Of a stretch of 64,000 nt of DNA, positions 309-55,793 are shown piece by piece. The stretch is from Oscillospiraceae bacterium (lineage in GTDB: Bacteria; Bacillota; Clostridia; Oscillospirales; CAG-272), in NCBI GenBank assembly GCA_015064085.1, contig SVSX01000003.1, forward strand, positions 9,145 through 73,144, given 5' to 3'. Positions within the stretch are counted from its first letter, which is position 1. Each line of letters opens with the position of its first letter. Made by a program: the position numbers and the translations under genes. The notes under the pieces are model-generated. The model was not told the origin of the DNA, ran no database searches, and worked only from the letters and a program-made list of their open reading frames with translations.

Positions 309-564
309 GGGGCTGTCTCAAATGTAAATTTGAGTCAGCCCCTTTTAGGGGATAGTCAGATTTGAGCAAGAAGCGTCGTTCTTCGGGGCGAAAGGCGTAC
401 AGGTGTACGTCGAGCCCCGAAAACGGCGGTAGAAAAAGTCCATAAAATTTGAAGAATTTCGAAGAAATTCAACCTATTACTGTCTCATTTTCGTTTTTTC
501 GTGCGTAAACGGGATTTTTTATTTATTCTTGGACTTTTTCGGTCTTGCCAAATGTGACAGCCCC
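309..564. mobile_element. 256-bp MITE-like structured repeat, a short internal-deletion copy of the element at 33099-34156
   Basis: Left arm 309-~495 and right arm ~502-564 are near-identical to 33099-~33286 and 34093-34156. Ends carry the 12-bp inverted motif GGGGCTGTC(T/A)CA ... TGTGACAGCCCC. Left end is a 34-nt hairpin at 309-342. Confidence 0.7.
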
Positions 565-568
565 TCGT

Positions 569-9379: not shown

Positions 9380-9408
9380 TTGACAGGGAATAGGAAAAAC
9401 TGTATAAT
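9380..9408 (+). promoter_or_regulatory. consensus sigma-A promoter of the rnf operon
   Basis: TTGACA (9380-9385), 17-nt spacer, TATAAT (9403-9408), about 90 nt upstream of rnfC. Confidence 0.7.
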
Positions 9409-9495
9409 ATAATTGTATAAAAAATTGGCGCACTTTTAGGATATATATCTTCACGTGCGCCTTTTTCACAAATATAAATACGGAAGGTATTCGTT

Positions 9496-21682: not shown

Positions 21683-21742
21683 TTTCTTTTACCTTTCAAA
21701 AATAAGTAATCTATACTATCACATTATATTATACAATATTTC

Positions 21743-22903
21743 TTATTCTCTGTCAATGGTGATTACGGCAAAATAATTGGGATCGAGCCGTGAAATTTCG
21801 GTGGAAATACTCTCTTTGAGCTGAATGTCGGAGAGCTTTAGCTCAAAGGGGGCGAGAACGTCGAAGATCAGATTTGAGTGAGTAGAGCCGCTGACGTATC
21901 TGAAATCGTGGATATCGAGCTCGGGGGATACTCTTTTTACAGCCTCGCGGACGCTGTTTCGGAGAGCTGTGACCTTTTCGTCATCGGTGACTATTGGGTC
22001 GAGGTGTACCGTCGCTTTGACAGACATCTCGGAAAAGAGCCGCTTTTCCAGATTATCTATAGCGTCGTGAGTCTCAAATATATTTTTTGAGCCGTCTACC
22101 TCGGCGTGAAGGGAGGCTATGGTGTTTCCCGCGCCGTAGTTGTGTACTATCAGATCGTGAATTCCGATTATCTCGGGATATTCGGCGGCGATGCTTCTTA
22201 TCTTTTCTATGACCTCGGGGTCGGGAGCTCCGCCAAGTATCGAATTTTTTGCTTCAAGAAGTACCTTTACTCCCGCGATGAAGATTATCACCGACACCGC
22301 AACTCCCATATATCCGTCGGTAACGAAGCCCGTAAAGTGGGTTATTATCATAGATACAAGGACCGCCGAGGTGGCGATAGCGTCGCAGAGGCTGTCGAGG
22401 GCGGTGGCTTTTACGACCGAAGAGCCTATCCTCTTGCCTATCTTTCCGTTGAAGAGAGATATCCAAAGCTTTGTGGCAATAGAGAGAATAAGTATTGCGG
22501 CGCTCATAGCTCCGAGCTTTGTGGGCTCGGGAGAGATTATCTTTTCCACCGAGGAGGAGAAGAGCTTGAAGGAGATCGTGATTATGATAAAGGAGACGAT
22601 CATCGAGGCGAAGTACTCAAATCTCGCGTGACCGAAGGGGTGGCCTCGGTCCGCGGGCTTCACCGATATCTTAAAGCTTATGAGCGATATTACCTGCGAC
22701 ATAGCGTCGGAGAGATTGTTGACGGCGTCGGCTGTGACCGATACCGAAGCCGAGAGCACACCCGCTGTGAGCTTCGCTATGGCGAGGAGAATGTTGAATA
22801 TTATTCCCACCGCGCTTGAGAGCGTGCCGTAGGCGCTCCTCACGGTAGGATCATTGAGCTTTTCTCTGTTTTTAATAAAGATACGGCATAGGAGTTCTGT
22901 CAT
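21743..22903 (-). CDS. cation diffusion facilitator family transporter
   Basis: Six TM segments with CDF motifs (SVSVTADAVNNLSDA, HPFGHARFEY) and a C-terminal cytoplasmic domain. Confidence 0.85.
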   Translation of the reverse strand: MTELLCRIFIKNREKLNDPTVRSAYGTLSSAVGIIFNILLAIAKLTAGVLSASVSVTADAVNNLSDAMSQVISLISFKISVKPADRGHPFGHARFEYFASMIVSFIIITISFKLFSSSVEKIISPEPTKLGAMSAAILILSIATKLWISLFNGKIGKRIGSSVVKATALDSLCDAIATSAVLVSMIITHFTGFVTDGYMGVAVSVIIFIAGVKVLLEAKNSILGGAPDPEVIEKIRSIAAEYPEIIGIHDLIVHNYGAGNTIASLHAEVDGSKNIFETHDAIDNLEKRLFSEMSVKATVHLDPIVTDDEKVTALRNSVREAVKRVSPELDIHDFRYVSGSTHSNLIFDVLAPFELKLSDIQLKESISTEISRLDPNYFAVITIDRE

Positions 22904-30544: not shown

Positions 30545-30579
30545 GCGGTTGTCCCAATTTTTTATTCGAGACAGCCGCC
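30545..30579. terminator. bidirectional terminator-like hairpin downstream of the nucleoside hydrolase gene
   Basis: GCGGTTGTC ... GACAGCCGC stem flanked by an A-run and a T-run. Confidence 0.55.
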
Positions 30580-30590
30580 TTTTTTATTAT

Positions 30591-31499: not shown

Positions 31500-31523
31500 A
31501 GCGTTTACCTCTGAAATCATTAG

Positions 31524-32138
31524 TCAATCAAAATTTTTCTTGATCTCAGCTCCAAAATGAAGCGGATCAAAATGATCGTTTATCTCCCATAAGTAGCTGT
31601 ACAGATACAGAATATGTGTGTAATGAGGGGGCTTGACTATATATTGCTTATAATCGGCAAAGCGTTCCCAAAACTCGTCCGATGTGTAACGTTCGGGAAG
31701 ATCGGATAATAATTTCGCGAAGGAATCTGCCTGATCGTCAGAAAGTGACATCCGAACGCTGTAAACCGAAGGATTTGGCAAATTTGGTGATTTGTCAAAT
31801 TTTTCTTTTGCTTTTGGATTTTCTGCAAAAGCGGCTTCAATTGCCATCGCTGTATCGTGCGAAACGGGCTGACAATTTTTTGCGTCAAGAAATTCGCAGG
31901 CATTGCTTGGCTTCATTTTGGGGGTAAAGCCCTTTTTGAGGACTACCCAATCTCCGAGCCTGTCACCCTTTTTCCAGGACAGACCGTTATAAGAATAATC
32001 CTCATCTGCATATTTTGGAAAAATGGCAACAACCTTCCAATAACCCGCGCTATATTGTGTAACCCAATCTCCGATCTTTAACGCGGTTAAGGGCTGATTT
32101 GTTTTTTCTTTCTTCCTGAACGCATCAAACATTCCCAT
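31524..32138 (-). CDS. hypothetical protein, 204 aa, AT-rich gene
   Basis: AGAGG RBS. No recognisable motif. Repeated GDWV segments (IGDWVTQYSAGYWKVV, LGDWVVLKKGF). Stop lies 4 nt before the extended nucleoside hydrolase ORF. Confidence 0.6.
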   Translation of the reverse strand: MGMFDAFRKKEKTNQPLTALKIGDWVTQYSAGYWKVVAIFPKYADEDYSYNGLSWKKGDRLGDWVVLKKGFTPKMKPSNACEFLDAKNCQPVSHDTAMAIEAAFAENPKAKEKFDKSPNLPNPSVYSVRMSLSDDQADSFAKLLSDLPERYTSDEFWERFADYKQYIVKPPHYTHILYLYSYLWEINDHFDPLHFGAEIKKNFD

Positions 32139-32182
32139 ATTTTTTACCTCTTGTTCTTTTTATTGTACAGCTTCATTATTTT

Positions 32183-32314
32183 TTAGTCGGTATCAAGCTC
32201 CTTCGCGATAGCTTCAAGGTCTAAAGCAAAATATTCGCTTATAGAGGCCTTTCTTTCGTCCCATTTATCAAAGTTTCTGGTATCATAATCAAGTAGGTTG
32301 TAAGCTATTGTCAT
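32183..32314 (-). CDS. possible small ORF (43 aa), not in the supplied ORF track
   Basis: Hand translation MTIAYNLLDYDTRNFDKWDERKASISEYFALDLEAIAKELDTD fills the gap between two same-strand genes. RBS is weak. Confidence 0.25.
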   Translation of the reverse strand: MTIAYNLLDYDTRNFDKWDERKASISEYFALDLEAIAKELDTD

Positions 32315-32344
32315 TTCCGAGAATGTAAAAATGACGGATAAGGA

Positions 32345-33028
32345 TTATTCAACAATGAATTTGGTTACCCATTCTTCGGGTAAAACATACTCAACACCAT
32401 CGATCGTTATTGAATAAGCTTTATCGTCAAATGACATTACCACCAAAGGTATAAATATATTGACATCTTCCTGTATAATGCCGCAGACATATCCGTAAGC
32501 ATAACAATTTTTTAGCATGCCGTCAGGCTGCGTTATTAAATCATACAGACCTGCATCTTTTGCTGTTTGTCCGGCTTTGATTTCAGTCAAAAATCGCTCG
32601 CAGTCGGTAATGCTTTTTTTGGAGATTTGGTTAGCCTCGTGAAAAAGAGTTGCTTTCACAAACTCAAATCTGATGCAATTTTCGAGAGTGACTTCTGTTG
32701 TCAGTAAATCGGATTTTACGTATATAGCGGCAAACTCATTATCAGGAAAATATCTTACCAAAACATCCCGACTGCCATTAACAGAATACATTCCTGTTTT
32801 AATCGTACTTCTGAGATGATCAAATTGCTTTTTTTCTCCTTTTATATGACCGATAAACTCCCACTCACCAAAGCAATAAACTATGCCTTCGTTGCCGACA
32901 AAAGTATATTCCGTGCCGTCATTTGCCACTACAGCTTTGTTATCGATTTCTTTAAATTTGGTGTTGCTACAAGATACAAATGAACACACGATTGCCAAAC
33001 AGAGAATAACAGCTAATACTTTTTTCAT
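32345..33028 (-). CDS. hypothetical lipoprotein, AT-rich gene
   Basis: AAGGAG RBS. Signal peptide with lipobox FVSC. No recognisable domain. Confidence 0.65.
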   Translation of the reverse strand: MKKVLAVILCLAIVCSFVSCSNTKFKEIDNKAVVANDGTEYTFVGNEGIVYCFGEWEFIGHIKGEKKQFDHLRSTIKTGMYSVNGSRDVLVRYFPDNEFAAIYVKSDLLTTEVTLENCIRFEFVKATLFHEANQISKKSITDCERFLTEIKAGQTAKDAGLYDLITQPDGMLKNCYAYGYVCGIIQEDVNIFIPLVVMSFDDKAYSITIDGVEYVLPEEWVTKFIVE

Positions 33029-33298
33029 AGCAGGATCTCCTTTTTTAAATCAGATTTCACATTTTTATTATACTATATCCAATCCCAAAAGTCAATAAGG
33101 GGCTGTCACAAATGTGAATTTGTGACAGCCCCTTTTAGGGGATAGTCAGATTTGAGCAAGAAGCGTCGTTCTTCGGGGCGTGAGGCGTACAAAGGTACGT
33201 CGAGCCCCGAAAACGGCGGTAGAAAAAGTCCATAAAATTTGAGAATTTCGAAGAAATTCGACCTATTACTGTCTCATTTTCGTTTCTTTATTGATGTA

Positions 33299-33327
33299 TT
33301 GACAGAATTTGAGAAAAATGCTATAAT
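33299..33327 (+). promoter_or_regulatory. consensus-like sigma-A promoter motif inside the element
   Basis: TTGACA (33299-33304), 17 nt, TATAAT (33322-33327). The -10 box overlaps the first plausible ATG (33326) of the cargo ORF, so either the promoter or the start assignment is uncertain. Confidence 0.4.
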
Positions 33328-33706
33328 GGATGCTGTTGAAAATGCATGTGTTATCACAAAAGACGGAAAAGTATATAAATGCTTTGGTGTTAAAGATCGT
33401 GTATTCCCTGATTTTGATCTTGGGGAAGAATTTTTTGGTGCCACAATGTCACATAATCATCCTATTACAGAAACTATGTTTTCATTCAGCAAAGATGACC
33501 TTGACCTGTTTGAAAAATATCATCTTGAGATGTTACGTGGTTGTGATGAAAAATATACATACCAGTTTACACGAAACGCAAAGGACATTGACGAATTCGT
33601 TGATTATGATATTACCAAAATAACCGAAGAAGTTTACCAGCATTCAAGGGTTATTCAAATGGCACAGCAATATGGTATTGGATATAGGCGGTGGAAAAAT
33701 GAATAA
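33326..33706 (+). CDS. small JAB/MPN (RadC-like) domain protein, tentative
   Basis: SHNHPITETMFSFSKDD resembles the RadC/JAMM HNHPxxxxxxSxxD motif, with an upstream Glu (AVENACVITKDGKV). The start is uncertain and the ORF is open from 33239. Confidence 0.45.
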   Translation: MDAVENACVITKDGKVYKCFGVKDRVFPDFDLGEEFFGATMSHNHPITETMFSFSKDDLDLFEKYHLEMLRGCDEKYTYQFTRNAKDIDEFVDYDITKITEEVYQHSRVIQMAQQYGIGYRRWKNE

Positions 33707-33896
33707 AGAACAAGCCAAAACAGAATATATTAAAATCCTTAACGAATCCATAAAGGAAGAAGAAAGGATCACACAAGAAGCCAAGAAAAACGGAACTTGG
33801 AAAATGGGACTTGATTCAAATAAAGAATTATTCACCGAACTTCATAAAAAAACCATTGAAAAAATCAATTTACTTAAATCAATGATAGATGAATAA
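33699..33896 (+). CDS. small helical (coiled-coil-like) protein, 65 aa
   Basis: MNKEQAKTEYIKILNESIKEEERITQEAKK... The start overlaps the upstream ORF stop by 8 nt, suggesting translational coupling. Confidence 0.45.
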   Translation: MNKEQAKTEYIKILNESIKEEERITQEAKKNGTWKMGLDSNKELFTELHKKTIEKINLLKSMIDE

Positions 33897-33903
33897 AAAC
33901 AAA

Positions 33904-33976
33904 AGCACTTTGCATCCGCAAGGTGCTTTTATAATACAACAATTCCACCACAGGACAACAATCCTGTGGTGTTTTT
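33904..33976 (+). terminator. two consecutive hairpin plus T-run terminators after the cargo ORFs
   Basis: AGCACTTTGC/GCAAGGTGCT plus TTTT (33904-33930) and CACCACAGGA/TCCTGTGGTG plus TTTTT (33946-33976). Confidence 0.6.
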
Positions 33977-34162
33977 GTAAGCACATCCAATTGGGTGTGT
34001 TTTTTTTATACCCAAAAACATCGTGGTGGATGTAAAAACACTATTCCAAAAATATCAAGATCGAAAACTTGTAAAAAGCGTAAAGAAAGGAATGCGTAAA
34101 TGGGATCTTTTTATTTATTTTCGGACTTTTTCGGTCTTGCCAAATGTGACAGCCCCTTACTT

Positions 34163-34273
34163 TTACATCTTCATTTTTTTGTCAAAGGATGGGTTACAAG
34201 CGTAGAAATTTTTGGAGTCCAGATTGTCCTGAGCTATCCGCAGAGCCTCGGCGAGGAGGTCAATATGAAGCAT
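34163..34273 (-). pseudogene. duplicated 3' fragment of the Mn-catalase (cotJC) gene
   Basis: 34155-34250 is identical to 35288-35383. It encodes ...AEALRIAQDNLDSKNFYACNPSFDKKMKM, the CotJC C-terminus. Only 36 codons remain. Confidence 0.8.
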
Positions 34274-34279
34274 TTTTAA

Positions 34280-35197
34280 TTAACCGATATCAACCGGATT
34301 ATAGTATGAATGAACCTTTACGTTGGGATTGCAATATTTTCTGATTTCTTCTGCATCTTTTTCCAAAAAATAAATTTCTTCAAGCTTTTCCAAGCCGGTT
34401 AAATCCGGGATAATCTCTACCTTTTTTTGATTTGAAATAATGATCTTTTTCAAATTTGGAAATTGAAGTAAAAAGCTCAAATCGGTTAGTTTTTTGTTCA
34501 TCCATAAACTAACTTCTTCAATTGATTCGTTTGTTCCAAAAGTGTCAAAATATGCAATGTTCTGTAAACTAAGGTATATTTTTCGCACCTGCATTTCTCG
34601 GAGAAAACTATAATCCTTTATGTCAACCGATCTTAAATAGAGTTTTTTCAAATTCTCAAATTCGCTTAATTTATCTAAGCCTTTTTTTACATTTCTAATC
34701 CCAAGGCTTTCAAGATCAGTCATATGAAGAATATCTTTGATATCCATTTTATATGTTTTATCTTCCAACTCTACAGTTAAACCTTTAATAGAGGGACTGA
34801 CGTTTTTTAAAAAGCCATAATCTTTCACATGAAAACAACTTAATGCTAAAAAATCTAAATTCATTTTCTCAAGAACATCAATGTTTTCTATTTCACTCCA
34901 TATATCCAAGTGAAGCGATTTTAAATGAGTCAATTGAGATAAATAGGATATGTCTACGCTTTTACTACTCCAGCTATAGTCTCTAAAAGCGATGTTGGGA
35001 TTAATTCTGAATATCTCATCTAAAATATAAAGTTCATTGCTTGATGGCGTTTTTGTGGTTTGTATATGACTCAACTCCGAATTCGCAAGAGCATCAATTA
35101 TTGTTTTATCACTTGCTGTTAGAGCAAATGCATCTTTATGTAAATCACTTCTAAATGGCAATTGAAAAAACTTGGCTGTGCTAACGTAAGAACCCAT
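34280..35197 (-). CDS. leucine-rich repeat protein with no signal peptide, very AT-rich gene
   Basis: AAGGAG RBS before MGSYVST. Repeated LxxLxL units (LTHLKSLHLD, LESLGIRNV, LKKLYLRSV, LKKIIISN, LEKLEEIYF). Confidence 0.7.
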   Translation of the reverse strand: MGSYVSTAKFFQLPFRSDLHKDAFALTASDKTIIDALANSELSHIQTTKTPSSNELYILDEIFRINPNIAFRDYSWSSKSVDISYLSQLTHLKSLHLDIWSEIENIDVLEKMNLDFLALSCFHVKDYGFLKNVSPSIKGLTVELEDKTYKMDIKDILHMTDLESLGIRNVKKGLDKLSEFENLKKLYLRSVDIKDYSFLREMQVRKIYLSLQNIAYFDTFGTNESIEEVSLWMNKKLTDLSFLLQFPNLKKIIISNQKKVEIIPDLTGLEKLEEIYFLEKDAEEIRKYCNPNVKVHSYYNPVDIG

Positions 35198-35263
35198 AAC
35201 ATTTCTCCTTTTATCAATTAAGAACTCTGTACAATTATACCATATACAATTCAAAATGTAAAC

Positions 35264-35289
35264 AGGGCGGCTTGATTTTTCAAGCCGCC
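35264..35289 (-). terminator. hairpin terminator downstream of cotJC
   Basis: GGCGGCTTGA-loop-TCAAGCCGCC immediately after the cotJC stop (35296). Confidence 0.55.
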
Positions 35290-35295
35290 TTACTT

Positions 35296-35904
35296 TTACA
35301 TCTTCATTTTTTTGTCAAAGGATGGGTTACAAGCGTAGAAATTTTTGGAGTCCAGATTGTCCTGAGCTATCCGCAGAGCCTCGCCGAAGCGCTGGTAATG
35401 GACCAGCTCTCTTTCTCTGAGAAATTTGATCGGCTCTCGCACGTCGGGGTCATCTGCGATACGGAGAATATTGTCATAGGTCGTTCTTGCCTTCTGCTCT
35501 GCGGCAAGATCCTCGTTAAGGTCGGTGAGGATATCTCCTTTTATTCCAACGTATTTCATATCAAAGGGAACTCCCGCAGCCGACACGGGGTAGACTCCTG
35601 TGGTGTGGTCCACAAAATAGCTCGCAAAGGGTGAAGCGGCTATCTCCTCCTCGGAAAGGTTTCTTGTGAGCTGATAGATTATCGATGCCACCATTTCAAG
35701 ATGTGCCAGCTCCTCTGTTCCCACGTCGGTGAGGATTCCCGTCACTTTATCATAAGGGCAGGAATATCTCTGATGGAGATATCTCATAGATGCTCCCAGC
35801 TCTCCGTCAGGTCCGCCGAGCTGTGATACTATCGCCGTTGCGAGTTTTGGGTTGGGGTTCTTGATCTTTACGGGAAATTGCAGTTTTTTCTCATATATCC
35901 ACAT
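35296..35904 (-). CDS. cotJC: manganese catalase family spore coat protein CotJC
   Basis: MWIYEKKLQFPV...GELGASMRYLHQRY...EELAHLEM di-metal ferritin-like motifs. Downstream of cotJA/cotJB. Confidence 0.9.
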   Translation of the reverse strand: MWIYEKKLQFPVKIKNPNPKLATAIVSQLGGPDGELGASMRYLHQRYSCPYDKVTGILTDVGTEELAHLEMVASIIYQLTRNLSEEEIAASPFASYFVDHTTGVYPVSAAGVPFDMKYVGIKGDILTDLNEDLAAEQKARTTYDNILRIADDPDVREPIKFLRERELVHYQRFGEALRIAQDNLDSKNFYACNPSFDKKMKM

Positions 35905-55523: not shown

Positions 55524-55601
55524 TGGGGAGAGATATGGGATTCGAACCCACGGCCTTCAGGGCCACAACCTGACGCGCTAACCAACTGCGCTAATCCCTC
55601 C
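55524..55601 (-). tRNA. tRNA-His (GTG), encoded CCA and G-1
   Basis: Hand-folded cloverleaf. Acceptor GAGGGAT/ATCTCTC, extra 5' G opposite C73, anticodon loop TTGTGGC, T-loop TTCGAAT. Confidence 0.85.
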
Positions 55602-55604
55602 ATA

Positions 55605-55681
55605 TGGCGTGCCTTAAGGGATTCGAACCCCCGACCTACTGCTTAGAAGGCAGTTGCTCTATCCGGCTGAGCTAAAGGCAC
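55605..55681 (-). tRNA. tRNA-Arg (TCT), encoded CCA
   Basis: Acceptor GTGCCTT/AAGGCAC, anticodon stem-loop ACTGC-CTTCTAA-GCAGT, T-loop TTCGAAT. Confidence 0.85.
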
Positions 55682-55719
55682 ATCTTGAATAAATGGCGCA
55701 TCATCGTGCGCCATTTAGA

Positions 55720-55793
<74 letters not shown>

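What the first reader, a model, noticed from the sequence alone, without database searches (positions are those of the whole stretch)
309..564. 256-bp structured repeat that is an exact internal-deletion derivative of a 1-kb element 33 kb away
Positions 309-~495 match 33099-~33286, and ~502-564 match 34093-34156, with only scattered substitutions. The short copy is therefore the two arms of the long element joined with about 6 nt between them, as in a MITE. Both copies begin with a GC-rich hairpin. Between copies, one stem base pair is changed on both sides (T-A in copy 1, A-T in copy 2), which preserves pairing. An internal stem-loop GGCGTAC-NNNN-GTACGTC keeps its stem while the loop differs (AGGT versus AAAG), and the flanking junction also differs (GAAAGG versus GTGAGG). 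An 11-nt inverted match (GAAAAAGTCCA at ~433-443 against TGGACTTTTTC at ~530-540) links the left and right arms. Both insertions are preceded by AATA and have no obvious target duplication. Together these features resemble hairpin-ended single-strand transposons such as IS200/IS605-type PATEs, or some other structured mobile RNA/DNA, but no transposase is present in the window.
Basis: seen in the sequence. Interest (0 to 1): 0.65.

Follow-up and report, generated by a model that had tools for sequence, protein, structure and literature searches.

The report
Structured dispersed repeat behind terminator hairpins
A ~255-base non-coding repeat with a strongly conserved folded shape is scattered through genomes of uncultured gut/rumen Oscillospiraceae, nearly always just behind a terminator-like hairpin between converging genes; one copy here has picked up a two-gene phage fragment, so this is a new family of small, probably mobile structured repeats, not a local duplication.

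Summary
Window 309-564 equals the two arms of 33099-34156 at about 94% identity.

The interpretation needs changing. I recovered 15 copies at unrelated loci in at least 8 genomes or metagenome contigs. Fourteen are short or truncated; only the window's second copy carries cargo. That cargo is not a transposase. It is a phage gene pair: a JAB-like C-terminal domain of MuF minor-capsid proteins plus its 65-aa partner. It sits in the loop of the element's variable apical hairpin, so the long copy is most likely a short copy with an insertion.

The unit is a conserved palindromic hairpin, a short spacer and a 219-nt core of six helices. Covariation is strong: 23 of 59 pairs change on both sides, 97% of cells pair, and no shuffle reaches these values. 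The + strand is the structured one, by G·U counts and by folding energy in all 13 copies.

Copies cluster by genome (up to 99% identical) and are absent from the orthologous site in relatives. They show no target duplication, an A-rich left flank and a T-rich right flank. The right end usually abuts a converging gene's stop codon.

There is no Rfam, phage or plasmid match, and no transposase in the window. Best reading: a new non-autonomous, terminator-associated structured repeat with an unknown mobilising enzyme.

The parts
309..342 (+). Hairpin 1 of the short copy (GGGGCTGTCTCAAAT-GTAA-ATTTGAGTCAGCCCC); an A-rich flank lies to its left and T343-346 follows it
   Evidence: Conserved in sequence in 13 of the 14 copies whose upstream side was recovered, counting the truncated L003b and L022, with 5 covarying pairs. 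Replaced by an unrelated terminator hairpin in L005.
343..346 (+). T-tract spacer between hairpin 1 and the core
   Evidence: TTTT(T) in most copies; AAA in L025; 14 nt in L024 and L027.
347..565 (+). 219-nt structured core. P1 347-351/561-565; P2 357-371/543-556; P3 372-389/414-430; P4 394-400/405-411; P5 432-441/531-540; P6 454-460/464-470
   Evidence: RNAalifold on 13 copies. Pair counts with shuffle and slide controls. Window coordinates.
480..490 (+). Conserved unpaired motif CTGTCTCATTT, a near-copy of the 5' half of hairpin 1
   Evidence: Replaced together with hairpin 1 in L005. No covarying helix found for it.
491..530 (+). Variable apical region with a small lineage-specific hairpin (492-496/507-511). 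Its loop (499/502) is the point where the long copy carries cargo
541..565 (+). Right end GGTCTTGCCAAATGTGACAGCCCC(T), the most sequence-conserved segment. It lies 4 nt from the stop codon (569-571) of the converging YitT gene
33099..33132 (+). Hairpin 1 of the long copy
   Evidence: scored terminator-like on the - strand.
33137..33288 (+). Left arm of the core in the long copy (P1-P6 5' parts and the conserved motif)
33289..34092 (+). 804-nt cargo inserted in the apical loop
   Evidence: GC content about 0.33.
33299..33327 (+). Perfect sigma-70-type promoter TTGACA-17(TG)-TATAAT inside the 5' end of ORF1
   Evidence: 12 of 12 matches.
33299..33706 (+). Cargo ORF1 (possible TTG start at 33299, or ATG at 33326): the JAB/MPN-like C-terminal domain family of phage MuF minor-capsid proteins
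33699..33896 (+). Cargo ORF2 (65 aa), the conserved partner gene of ORF1 homologues in prophages
   Evidence: 42% identity, E = 3e-17, to the gene after the ORF1 homologue in L010.
33912..34002 (+). Three terminator-like hairpins that close the cargo
34093..34157 (+). Right arm of the long copy; its end lies 1 nt from the stop codon of a duplicated cotJC 3' fragment

Best explanation
The finding is a member of a previously undescribed family of non-autonomous dispersed repeats in Oscillospiraceae. The unit is a palindromic hairpin, a short T-rich spacer and a 219-nt core of six helices whose two ends pair with each other.

I propose that it spreads within genomes by copy-and-paste, through a trans-acting enzyme that is not in this window. 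That enzyme would recognise the hairpin-like ends in a single-stranded + strand form, RNA or ssDNA.

The element lands directly behind a GC-rich hairpin followed by a T-run. That hairpin can be an intrinsic terminator, hairpin 1, or the right end of a resident copy. The element therefore ends up in the terminator slot between converging genes. There hairpin 1 and the closing helix P1 plus T-run can themselves serve as terminators, which would make insertions tolerated.

The 1-kb copy is a short copy whose apical loop received an 804-nt phage-derived cassette: a MuF C-terminal JAB-like domain, its small partner gene, a promoter and terminators.

Shown: multi-copy dispersal, the structure with covariation, the strand asymmetry, the context rule, absence from orthologous sites, and the identity of the cargo.

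Inferred: mobility itself, terminator targeting, the single-stranded intermediate, and the terminator function.
For: Dispersal:
- Copies occur in Oscillospiraceae MAG SIG646 (4 copies), Eubacteriales fecal_MAG_18 (2 copies), the window's organism (2 copies) and seven further metagenome or MAG contigs.
- The flanking proteins of the copies are unrelated to each other.
- A profile of the translated element finds 82 protein clusters (representatives at 50% identity) of spurious short ORFs in 1.84 billion representative proteins, 31 of them at E <= 1e-10.

Recent spread:
- Copies cluster by genome: win1-win2 95%, L001-L004 99%, L002-L005 96%, against 69-93% between genomes.
- Assemblies break inside the element.
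- Truncated copies exist (L003b, L022).

Gain at the window locus:
- The syntenic YitT-ProX intergenic region in relatives with 89% and 79% YitT identity holds only an ordinary, unrelated terminator. It measures 100 nt and 40 nt, against 279 nt in the window.

Structure:
- There are 59 pairs, 23 with changes on both sides, and 97.1% of cells are paired.
- None of 500 shuffles reaches any of the measures. The slid controls stay at or below 49% paired and at or below 10 covarying pairs.

Strand:
- There are 46 G.U cells on the + strand against 7 on the - strand.
- The + strand is more stable in all 13 copies, by 16 kcal/mol on average with RNA parameters and by 6-14 kcal/mol with DNA parameters.

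Context:
- In the 14 copies whose upstream side was recovered, the core is preceded by a GC-rich hairpin: hairpin 1 in 13, counting the truncated L003b and L022, and an unrelated terminator in L005.
- The translated sequence P0181 shows the left end of one copy 3 nt from the right end of another. This indicates a tandem arrangement.
- The right flank is T-rich and the left flank A-rich, with no target duplication.
- The right end lies within 21 nt of a converging ORF's stop codon in 10 of 13 full-length copies.

Not coding: substitutions show no codon periodicity, and L008 has no start codon.

Cargo.
Against: - No enzyme partner was found in the window or in any fetched locus.
- No clean empty-versus-filled pair was found. 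In the relatives the whole intergenic region differs, so exact insertion boundaries and the target are not proven.
- No autonomous copy is known.
- Clustering by genome could also come from gene conversion.
- Sampling is biased. Most copies were found with probes from the left arm, so which kinds of truncation occur is uninformative.
- The + strand has no conserved promoter and lies behind a hairpin with a U-run. In most copies it is the - strand that must be transcribed, as the 3' UTR of the converging gene. This fits an RNA role for the + strand poorly and leaves RNA versus ssDNA undecided.
- The tandem-copy evidence rests on protein translations only.
Confidence: 0.5

Rival explanations
1. 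A cis-acting structured RNA module, not an actively transposing element. It would be a 3'-UTR or terminator-associated element (termination insulator, RNA-stability element or protein-binding platform) that host selection keeps between converging genes. It would spread occasionally by recombination or gene conversion.
For: - Very strong covariation and strand asymmetry.
- Constant position relative to stop codons and terminators.
- No transposase anywhere.
- No target duplication.
Against: - Copies lie next to unrelated genes.
- Two loci in one MAG are 99% identical.
- The element is absent from the orthologous site in relatives.
- Tandem and truncated copies exist.
- The better-folding + strand is not the one obligatorily transcribed from the adjacent gene.
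Confidence: 0.2
2. An IS200/IS605-type PATE. Hairpin-ended single-strand transposition would be driven by an HUH TnpA encoded elsewhere, possibly with an omega-RNA-like scaffold.
For: - No target duplication.
- One strand is the structured strand, which suits a single-stranded intermediate.
- Hairpin 1 sits at the left end, and like the IS200 left-end hairpin it looks like a terminator (my own knowledge of IS200).
- The stem of hairpin 1 and the closing helix P1/P2 have similar sequences, so one protein could bind both.
Against: - There is no conserved 4-5-nt target motif 5' of the left end; the flanks are merely A-rich.
- The right end has no local subterminal hairpin.
- The ends form a 22-bp inverted repeat, which IS200/IS605 elements lack.
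- No Y1_Tnp or TnpB was found in the window or loci.
- No Rfam match to omega-RNA-type families.
Confidence: 0.1
3. A classical MITE derived from a DDE-type insertion sequence. The long copy would be the ancestral form or a mobile insertion cassette, and the short copy its internal-deletion derivative.
For: - Imperfect terminal inverted repeats, small size, multiple copies and no ORF.
- The long copy carries passenger genes between the same ends.
Against: - No target duplication in 13 copies.
- The internal helices covary far beyond what inverted-repeat ends require.
- The cargo is a phage head-module fragment, not a transposase.
- Fourteen of 15 copies lack cargo, and each lineage has its own apical hairpin at that point.
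Confidence: 0.08
4. Two local copies produced by a segmental duplication within this 64-kb region.
For: Only two copies lie in the window.
Against: - At least 15 copies occur at unrelated loci in several genomes.
- The flanks of the two window copies share nothing.
Confidence: 0.01

Closest known systems
REP/REPIN elements mobilised by RAYT transposases
   Same: Non-coding palindromic units in intergenic space, often between converging genes and acting like terminators. Two inverted half-sites form a hairpin. They form non-autonomous populations inside a genome that depend on an enzyme encoded elsewhere (definition from PMC3337134). Hairpin 1 alone looks like a REP doublet.
   Different: The unit here is about 255 nt, with a 190-nt multi-helix interior conserved by covariation. 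No GTAG-type conserved head is present and no RAYT was found. REPINs are mainly known from Proteobacteria (my own knowledge).
Bacterial MITEs that fold as long RNA hairpins (ERIC, Correia/CREE, pneumococcal BOX/RUP/SPRITE)
   Same: Small, inverted-repeat-ended, multi-copy and intergenic. They are co-transcribed with neighbouring genes, and larger variants carry internal insertions (overview in PMC3184786; details from my own knowledge).
   Different: There is no target duplication. The element has six helices including a three-helix left domain rather than a simple long hairpin. It has a separate leading hairpin and a fixed orientation relative to an upstream terminator-like hairpin.
IS200/IS605 PATEs
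   Same: Hairpin-containing ends, no target duplication, strand-specific structure, and no coding capacity.
   Different: No conserved target tetranucleotide, ends that are inverted repeats, no right-end local hairpin, and no TnpA or TnpB found.
Bacterial class C (IIC) group II introns
   Same: They work alike in where they sit: directly behind an intrinsic-terminator hairpin, in the terminator's orientation, without target duplication, and sometimes in tandem (my own knowledge).
   Different: A 219-nt core is far too small. It has no GUGYG/AY ends, no domain V and no Rfam intron hit. No reverse transcriptase was found.
Mobile insertion cassettes (such as MIC231) and orphan polymorphic-toxin cassettes
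   Same: The long copy has passenger genes between the ends of a non-autonomous element. The passengers belong to the MuF-associated C-terminal-domain system of temperate phages (PMC5576092, PMC12226406).
   Different: Only one cargo-bearing copy is known, so there is no evidence that the cargo moves with the element. ORF1 is JAB/MPN-like and has not been shown to be a toxin.

Membership tests
Classical MITE (DDE-IS derived) | Terminal inverted repeats | tested here: met
   P1/P2: 17 pairs between 347-371 and 543-565. The outermost GGGGCTGTCNCA is shared by the 5' half of hairpin 1 and the reverse complement of the right end.
Classical MITE (DDE-IS derived) | Target-site duplication of fixed length | tested here: not met
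   The left flanks are A-rich and the right flanks T-rich. No direct repeat appears in 13 copies under either choice of boundary.
Classical MITE (DDE-IS derived) | Parent IS with the same ends that encodes a transposase | tested here: inconclusive
   None in the window, in the fetched loci, or in the phage, plasmid and viral collections. Whole genomes could not be scanned.
IS200/IS605 PATE | Conserved 4-5-nt target/cleavage motif immediately 5' of the left end | tested here: not met
   The left flanks are GAAAATA, TCAATAA, AAAAAT, GAAAAT, ATAATAA, AAAAAA, TTGAAC, GCACTG and so on.
IS200/IS605 PATE | Similar subterminal local hairpins at both ends on the same strand, with no terminal inverted repeats | tested here: not met
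   Only the left end has a local hairpin. The right end pairs with the left end of the core over about 190 nt.
IS200/IS605 PATE | Cognate Y1 HUH TnpA (with or without TnpB) in the genome | not testable with these tools
   Absent from the window and loci.
REPIN/REP-RAYT | Two inverted REP units of about 20-25 nt separated by a short spacer | tested here: inconclusive
   Hairpin 1 fits (15 + 15 nt with a 4-7-nt loop). The core fits only if a 190-nt structured spacer is allowed.
REPIN/REP-RAYT | Single-copy RAYT gene flanked by REPs | not testable with these tools
   Not in the window; the genomes could not be scanned.
Any Rfam 15 RNA family | Covariance-model score at or above the gathering threshold | tested here: not met
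   Only three tRNAs in the window reach threshold. The best hit on the element is Clostridiales-1 at 18.3 bits against a threshold of 48. No family hits the core in six other copies.
Group IIC intron | Six-domain ribozyme with GUGYG...AY ends and domain V | tested here: not met
   The core is 219 nt, starts AGGGGAUAG, ends ACAGCCCCU, and has no intron hit in Rfam.
Group IIC intron | Insertion directly 3' of a terminator hairpin in the same orientation | tested here: met
   A GC-rich hairpin lies upstream of the core in all 14 copies whose upstream side was recovered, counting the truncated L003b and L022. In L005 it is an unrelated native terminator.
Protein-coding small ORF (the MDFFYRRF... 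frame on the - strand) | Codon-position bias of substitutions and a conserved start codon | tested here: not met
   Variable columns fall 8, 6 and 11 on codon positions 1, 2 and 3. L008 lacks a start codon.
MuF-associated C-terminal domain with partner gene (cargo) | Homology and synteny with the genes directly after a Phage_Mu_F gene | tested here: met
   - The ORF1 homologue P0010 (59% identity) directly follows a Phage_Mu_F gene in a prophage head module and is followed by an ORF2 homologue.
- Longer homologues carry the MuF C-terminus.
- The predicted fold matches phage minor capsid proteins, E = 4.6e-10, TM 0.81.

The most novel reading that the evidence does not exclude
The core could be a mobile structured RNA, or an ssDNA copy of one, that homes to the 3' side of terminator-like hairpins. 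It would do so either as a protein-less retro-mobile element served in trans by a reverse transcriptase, or as a guide- or bridge-RNA-like module for a trans-encoded recombinase. In the second case the conserved unpaired CTGTCTCATTT motif would read the hairpin or the element's own right end. The joint replacement of hairpin 1 and this motif in L005, and the three-way change in L026, would then be retargeting events.
Probability: 0.1. Interest if true: 0.85.

Novelty: new variant of a known kind. Interest (0 to 1): 0.45.

Why it matters
If correct, this adds a family of small mobile repeats from a poorly studied but abundant gut and rumen clade. Its multi-helix fold is under clear selection, and it occupies the terminator slot between converging genes. 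That makes it a candidate both for a new structured nucleic-acid motif, absent from Rfam, and for a way that terminators are replaced or donated by mobile DNA.

There are practical consequences too:
- The element breaks metagenome assemblies.
- It has seeded public protein databases with dozens of spurious 'hypothetical proteins'.
- It can act as a landing pad for a phage-derived gene cassette.

The unresolved conflict between the strand that folds best and the strand that must be transcribed is a concrete, testable question.

Tried and rejected
- **Rfam.** Searches at gathering and at permissive thresholds on the window and on six other copies found only tRNAs and generic hairpin noise.
- **Phage, plasmid and viral collections.** BLASTN of the element and of five divergent copies found nothing. 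Three exact-pattern scans of viral contigs found nothing.
- **Chance matches.** L006 (28 nt) and L007 (21 nt) are chance matches and were discarded.
- **Coding hypothesis.** I rejected the conserved ATG-started frame on the - strand. I then used that frame as a probe, which recovered further copies.
- **Riboswitch-like terminator/antiterminator idea.** I considered pairing between hairpin 1 and the core's ends or the internal motif. No covarying extra helix was found.
- **Promoter for the + strand.** I looked in hairpin 1 and the spacer and found none.
- **Empty site.** Same-species contigs all carry the element. Relatives lack it, but their intergenic regions have diverged, so no exact insertion point emerges.
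- **Solo hairpins.** One hairpin-1-like terminator lies at 30546-30585. A second candidate, in L003, lies in coding sequence and is not a hairpin.
- **Literature.** A search for the end sequences found nothing relevant.

Full report
**1. The observation**

Window 309-564 aligns with 33099-33288 (93.7% over 191 nt) and with 34093-34156 (93.8% over 64 nt). The long copy has 804 nt where the short copy has 2 nt.

- the leading GC-rich hairpin with one pair switched from T-A to A-T;
- the GGCGTAC/GTACGTC stem with different loops;
- the 11-nt inverted match between the arms.

The short copy folds at -113.2 kcal/mol on the + strand (z = -9.5) and -94.4 kcal/mol on the - strand.

**2. More copies**

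An exact 20-mer from the left arm found five real loci in the one-genome-per-species collection. Four copies lie on three contigs of Oscillospiraceae MAG SIG646, and two lie in Eubacteriales fecal_MAG_18. A right-end 21-mer found one diverged copy in metagenome contigs, L008.

That frame happens to be open. I searched for spurious gene calls with a profile of these peptides. This returned 14 short 'hypothetical proteins'. Fetching six of them gave five more copies of the core (L021, L024-L026, and L027, whose contig ends inside hairpin 1) and one truncated copy, 69-86% identical to the window's.

The same approach against 1.84 billion representative proteins gives 82 clusters at E <= 0.001 and 31 at E <= 1e-10. 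The family is therefore much larger than my sample.

All copies but the window's second one are short or truncated. Their flanking proteins are unrelated. Nothing similar exists in the phage, plasmid or viral-contig collections.

**3. Anatomy**

The unit has three parts.
- Hairpin 1 has the consensus GGGGCTGTCTCAAAT-loop-ATTTGAGACAGCCCC.
- A spacer follows. It is usually TTTT(A), but AAA in L025 and 14 nt in L024 and L027.
- The 219-nt core comes last.

In the core, the ends pair with each other (P1, P2). A second long-range helix (P5) closes the apical part. The left domain holds P3 with the nested P4, followed by the small hairpin P6. Then come a conserved unpaired motif, CTGTCTCATTT, and a variable region with a lineage-specific small hairpin.

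On 13 copies, 59 pairs are predicted and 23 of them show changes on both sides. In all, 97.1% of cells are standard pairs. None of 500 column shuffles reaches the observed value on any of five measures. Sliding the 3' partners by 1-3 columns drops pairing to 36-49% and the covarying pairs to 2-10. Hairpin 1 also covaries.

The structure is therefore under selection.

The sequence is not coding. Substitutions fall 8, 6 and 11 on the three codon positions of the open frame, and L008 has no start codon.

No Rfam family matches the core in any copy.

**4. Which strand**

G.U pairs sit on the + strand in 46 cells (15 pairs). Only 7 cells (6 pairs) would be G.U on the - strand. This gives 97.1% pairing on the + strand against 92.0% on the - strand.

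Two wobble positions are U.G or G.U in 10 of 13 copies and a Watson-Crick pair in the other three.

All 13 cores fold more stably as the + strand. The mean difference is 16 kcal/mol with RNA parameters and 6-14 kcal/mol with DNA parameters.

The constrained molecule is therefore a single + strand. These data cannot tell RNA from ssDNA.

**5. Context**

In 10 of 13 full-length copies, the right end lies 1-21 nt from the stop codon of an ORF that converges on it. The hairpin 1 side usually faces the end of another converging gene.

Left flanks are A-rich and right flanks T-rich. There is no target duplication.

In L005, hairpin 1 is replaced by an unrelated terminator hairpin followed by TTTTT and the core. 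In L025 a native terminator lies upstream of hairpin 1.

One translated sequence (P0181) reads from the left end of one copy, across 3 nt, straight into the right end of another. A second (P0189) shows a right-end fragment between hairpin 1 and the core.

So the core always follows a GC-rich hairpin-like end. The 3' half of hairpin 1 is nearly the same sequence as the element's right end. Hairpin 1 may therefore be a collapsed older copy, or the preferred target.

**6. Evidence for movement**

- Copies cluster by genome: 95% in the window's organism, 94-99% in SIG646 and 96% in fecal_MAG_18, against 69-93% between genomes.
- Contigs of the same species from four other samples carry the element at site 1, and several end inside it.
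- In relatives whose YitT is 89% and 79% identical, the gene upstream of yitT is the same. In the 89% relative the full Alr-AraC-YitT-ProX-SecG order is also the same. The intergenic region there holds only an unrelated ordinary terminator (100 nt and 40 nt, against 279 nt in the window).
- The whole spacer differs in these relatives, so the exact insertion point cannot be read off. It looks as if the native terminator stem-loop was replaced.

**7. The cargo**

ORF1 has 34 homologues, none with a Pfam family.

One homologue, 59% identical, sits directly after a Phage_Mu_F gene in a prophage head module. It is followed by a 67-aa gene that is 42% identical to ORF2. Longer homologues are fused to the C-terminal end of MuF proteins.

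The AlphaFold model has pLDDT 84.5. It matches the C-terminal part of phage 'minor capsid proteins' in BFVD (E = 4.6e-10, TM 0.81). It matches JAB/MPN and RadC proteins more weakly. It has no significant match among solved structures.

MuF proteins with variable C-terminal domains and a downstream partner gene are the MuF polymorphic-toxin family of temperate phages (PMC5576092, PMC12226406). I did not show that ORF1 is toxic.

The cargo also has a 12-of-12 promoter inside the 5' end of ORF1 and three terminator-like hairpins. It sits in the loop of the variable apical hairpin.

No transposase, integrase or reverse-transcriptase family hits any window ORF tested. The 1-kb copy is therefore not an autonomous parent. 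It is most simply a short copy that took up an insertion.

**8. Interpretation**

My best reading has confidence of about 0.5. This is a new family of non-autonomous, structure-dependent dispersed repeats. It spreads within Oscillospiraceae genomes through an unknown trans-acting enzyme. It comes to lie behind terminator-like hairpins between converging genes, where its own hairpins can serve as terminators.

The rivals are these:
- a purely host-selected cis-acting RNA module (0.2);
- an IS200/IS605 PATE (0.1);
- a classical DDE-type MITE with the long copy as parent (0.08);
- a local duplication (refuted).

Three things remain unexplained.
- The strand that folds best is antisense to the gene whose 3' UTR must contain the element, and it has no conserved promoter.
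- The conserved unpaired motif resembles a half-site of hairpin 1. It is replaced together with hairpin 1 in L005, and it changes together with both P2 strands in L026. Each case is a single example, and no covarying helix was found.
- The enzyme is unknown.

**9. Comparison and novelty**

The element works most like REP/REPIN elements and RNA-folding MITEs. In where it sits, it resembles class C group II introns. It fails defining tests for each:
- no target duplication, so it fails the MITE test;
- no conserved target motif and no right-end local hairpin, so it fails the IS200/IS605 test;
- no ribozyme domains, so it fails the group II intron test;
- no Rfam family.

I therefore file it as a new variant of a known kind, the small structured dispersed repeat. 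It is of moderate interest. It would be of clearly higher interest if the single-stranded, terminator-homing mechanism proves real.

Noticed in passing
window 34155-34254 and 35288-35387: A 100-nt direct repeat at 99% identity. The 3' end of the cotJC-like Mn-catalase gene (35296-35904, - strand) is duplicated, and the two copies flank an LRR-protein gene (34280-35254). This looks like a single-crossover insertion. Other assemblies of this organism break here. The right end of the long element abuts the stop codon of the orphan cotJC fragment, so it probably sat next to the intact gene originally.
   Followed up: partly
window ~31500-35290: A low-GC island (0.30-0.40, against 0.50-0.56 on either side) holds a 204-aa protein, a 227-aa lipoprotein, the long element with its cargo, and the LRR gene.
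   Followed up: partly
window 33299-33327: A perfect extended sigma-70-type promoter (TTGACA-17-TG-TATAAT) lies inside the first codons of cargo ORF1. Transcription from it would skip the ORF1 start and could mainly express the 65-aa ORF2.
   Followed up: no
window 33299-33706 (ORF1) and homologues P0002-P0034: This is a Pfam-less domain family with an invariant HNH(P)...S..D motif and a GIGYRRW C-terminus. It occurs free or fused to the C-terminus of phage MuF minor-capsid proteins. The predicted fold is JAB/MPN-like.
   Followed up: partly
P0155-P0241 (public protein collections): Dozens of short 'hypothetical proteins' in public databases are translations of this non-coding element.
   Followed up: yes
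window 30546-30585: A solo bidirectional terminator lies between comM and the nucleoside-hydrolase gene. Its 3' half (ATTCGAGACAGCCGCC + T-run) resembles the 3' half of hairpin 1. It could be a target-like site or a coincidence.
   Followed up: no
L005:588-842 (- strand) compared with L002: In this one copy, both hairpin 1 and the conserved internal motif CTGTCTCATTT are replaced by different sequences. The rest of the copy is 96% identical to its sister copy in the same MAG.
   Followed up: partly
window 9380-9413 and 21723-21756: A 34-nt inverted repeat (88% complementary) contains TTGACA...TATAAT. It is a shared promoter-like sequence upstream of the rnf operon and of a cation-efflux gene.
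   Followed up: no
window 55527-55793 (- strand): A cluster of three tRNA genes.
   Followed up: no
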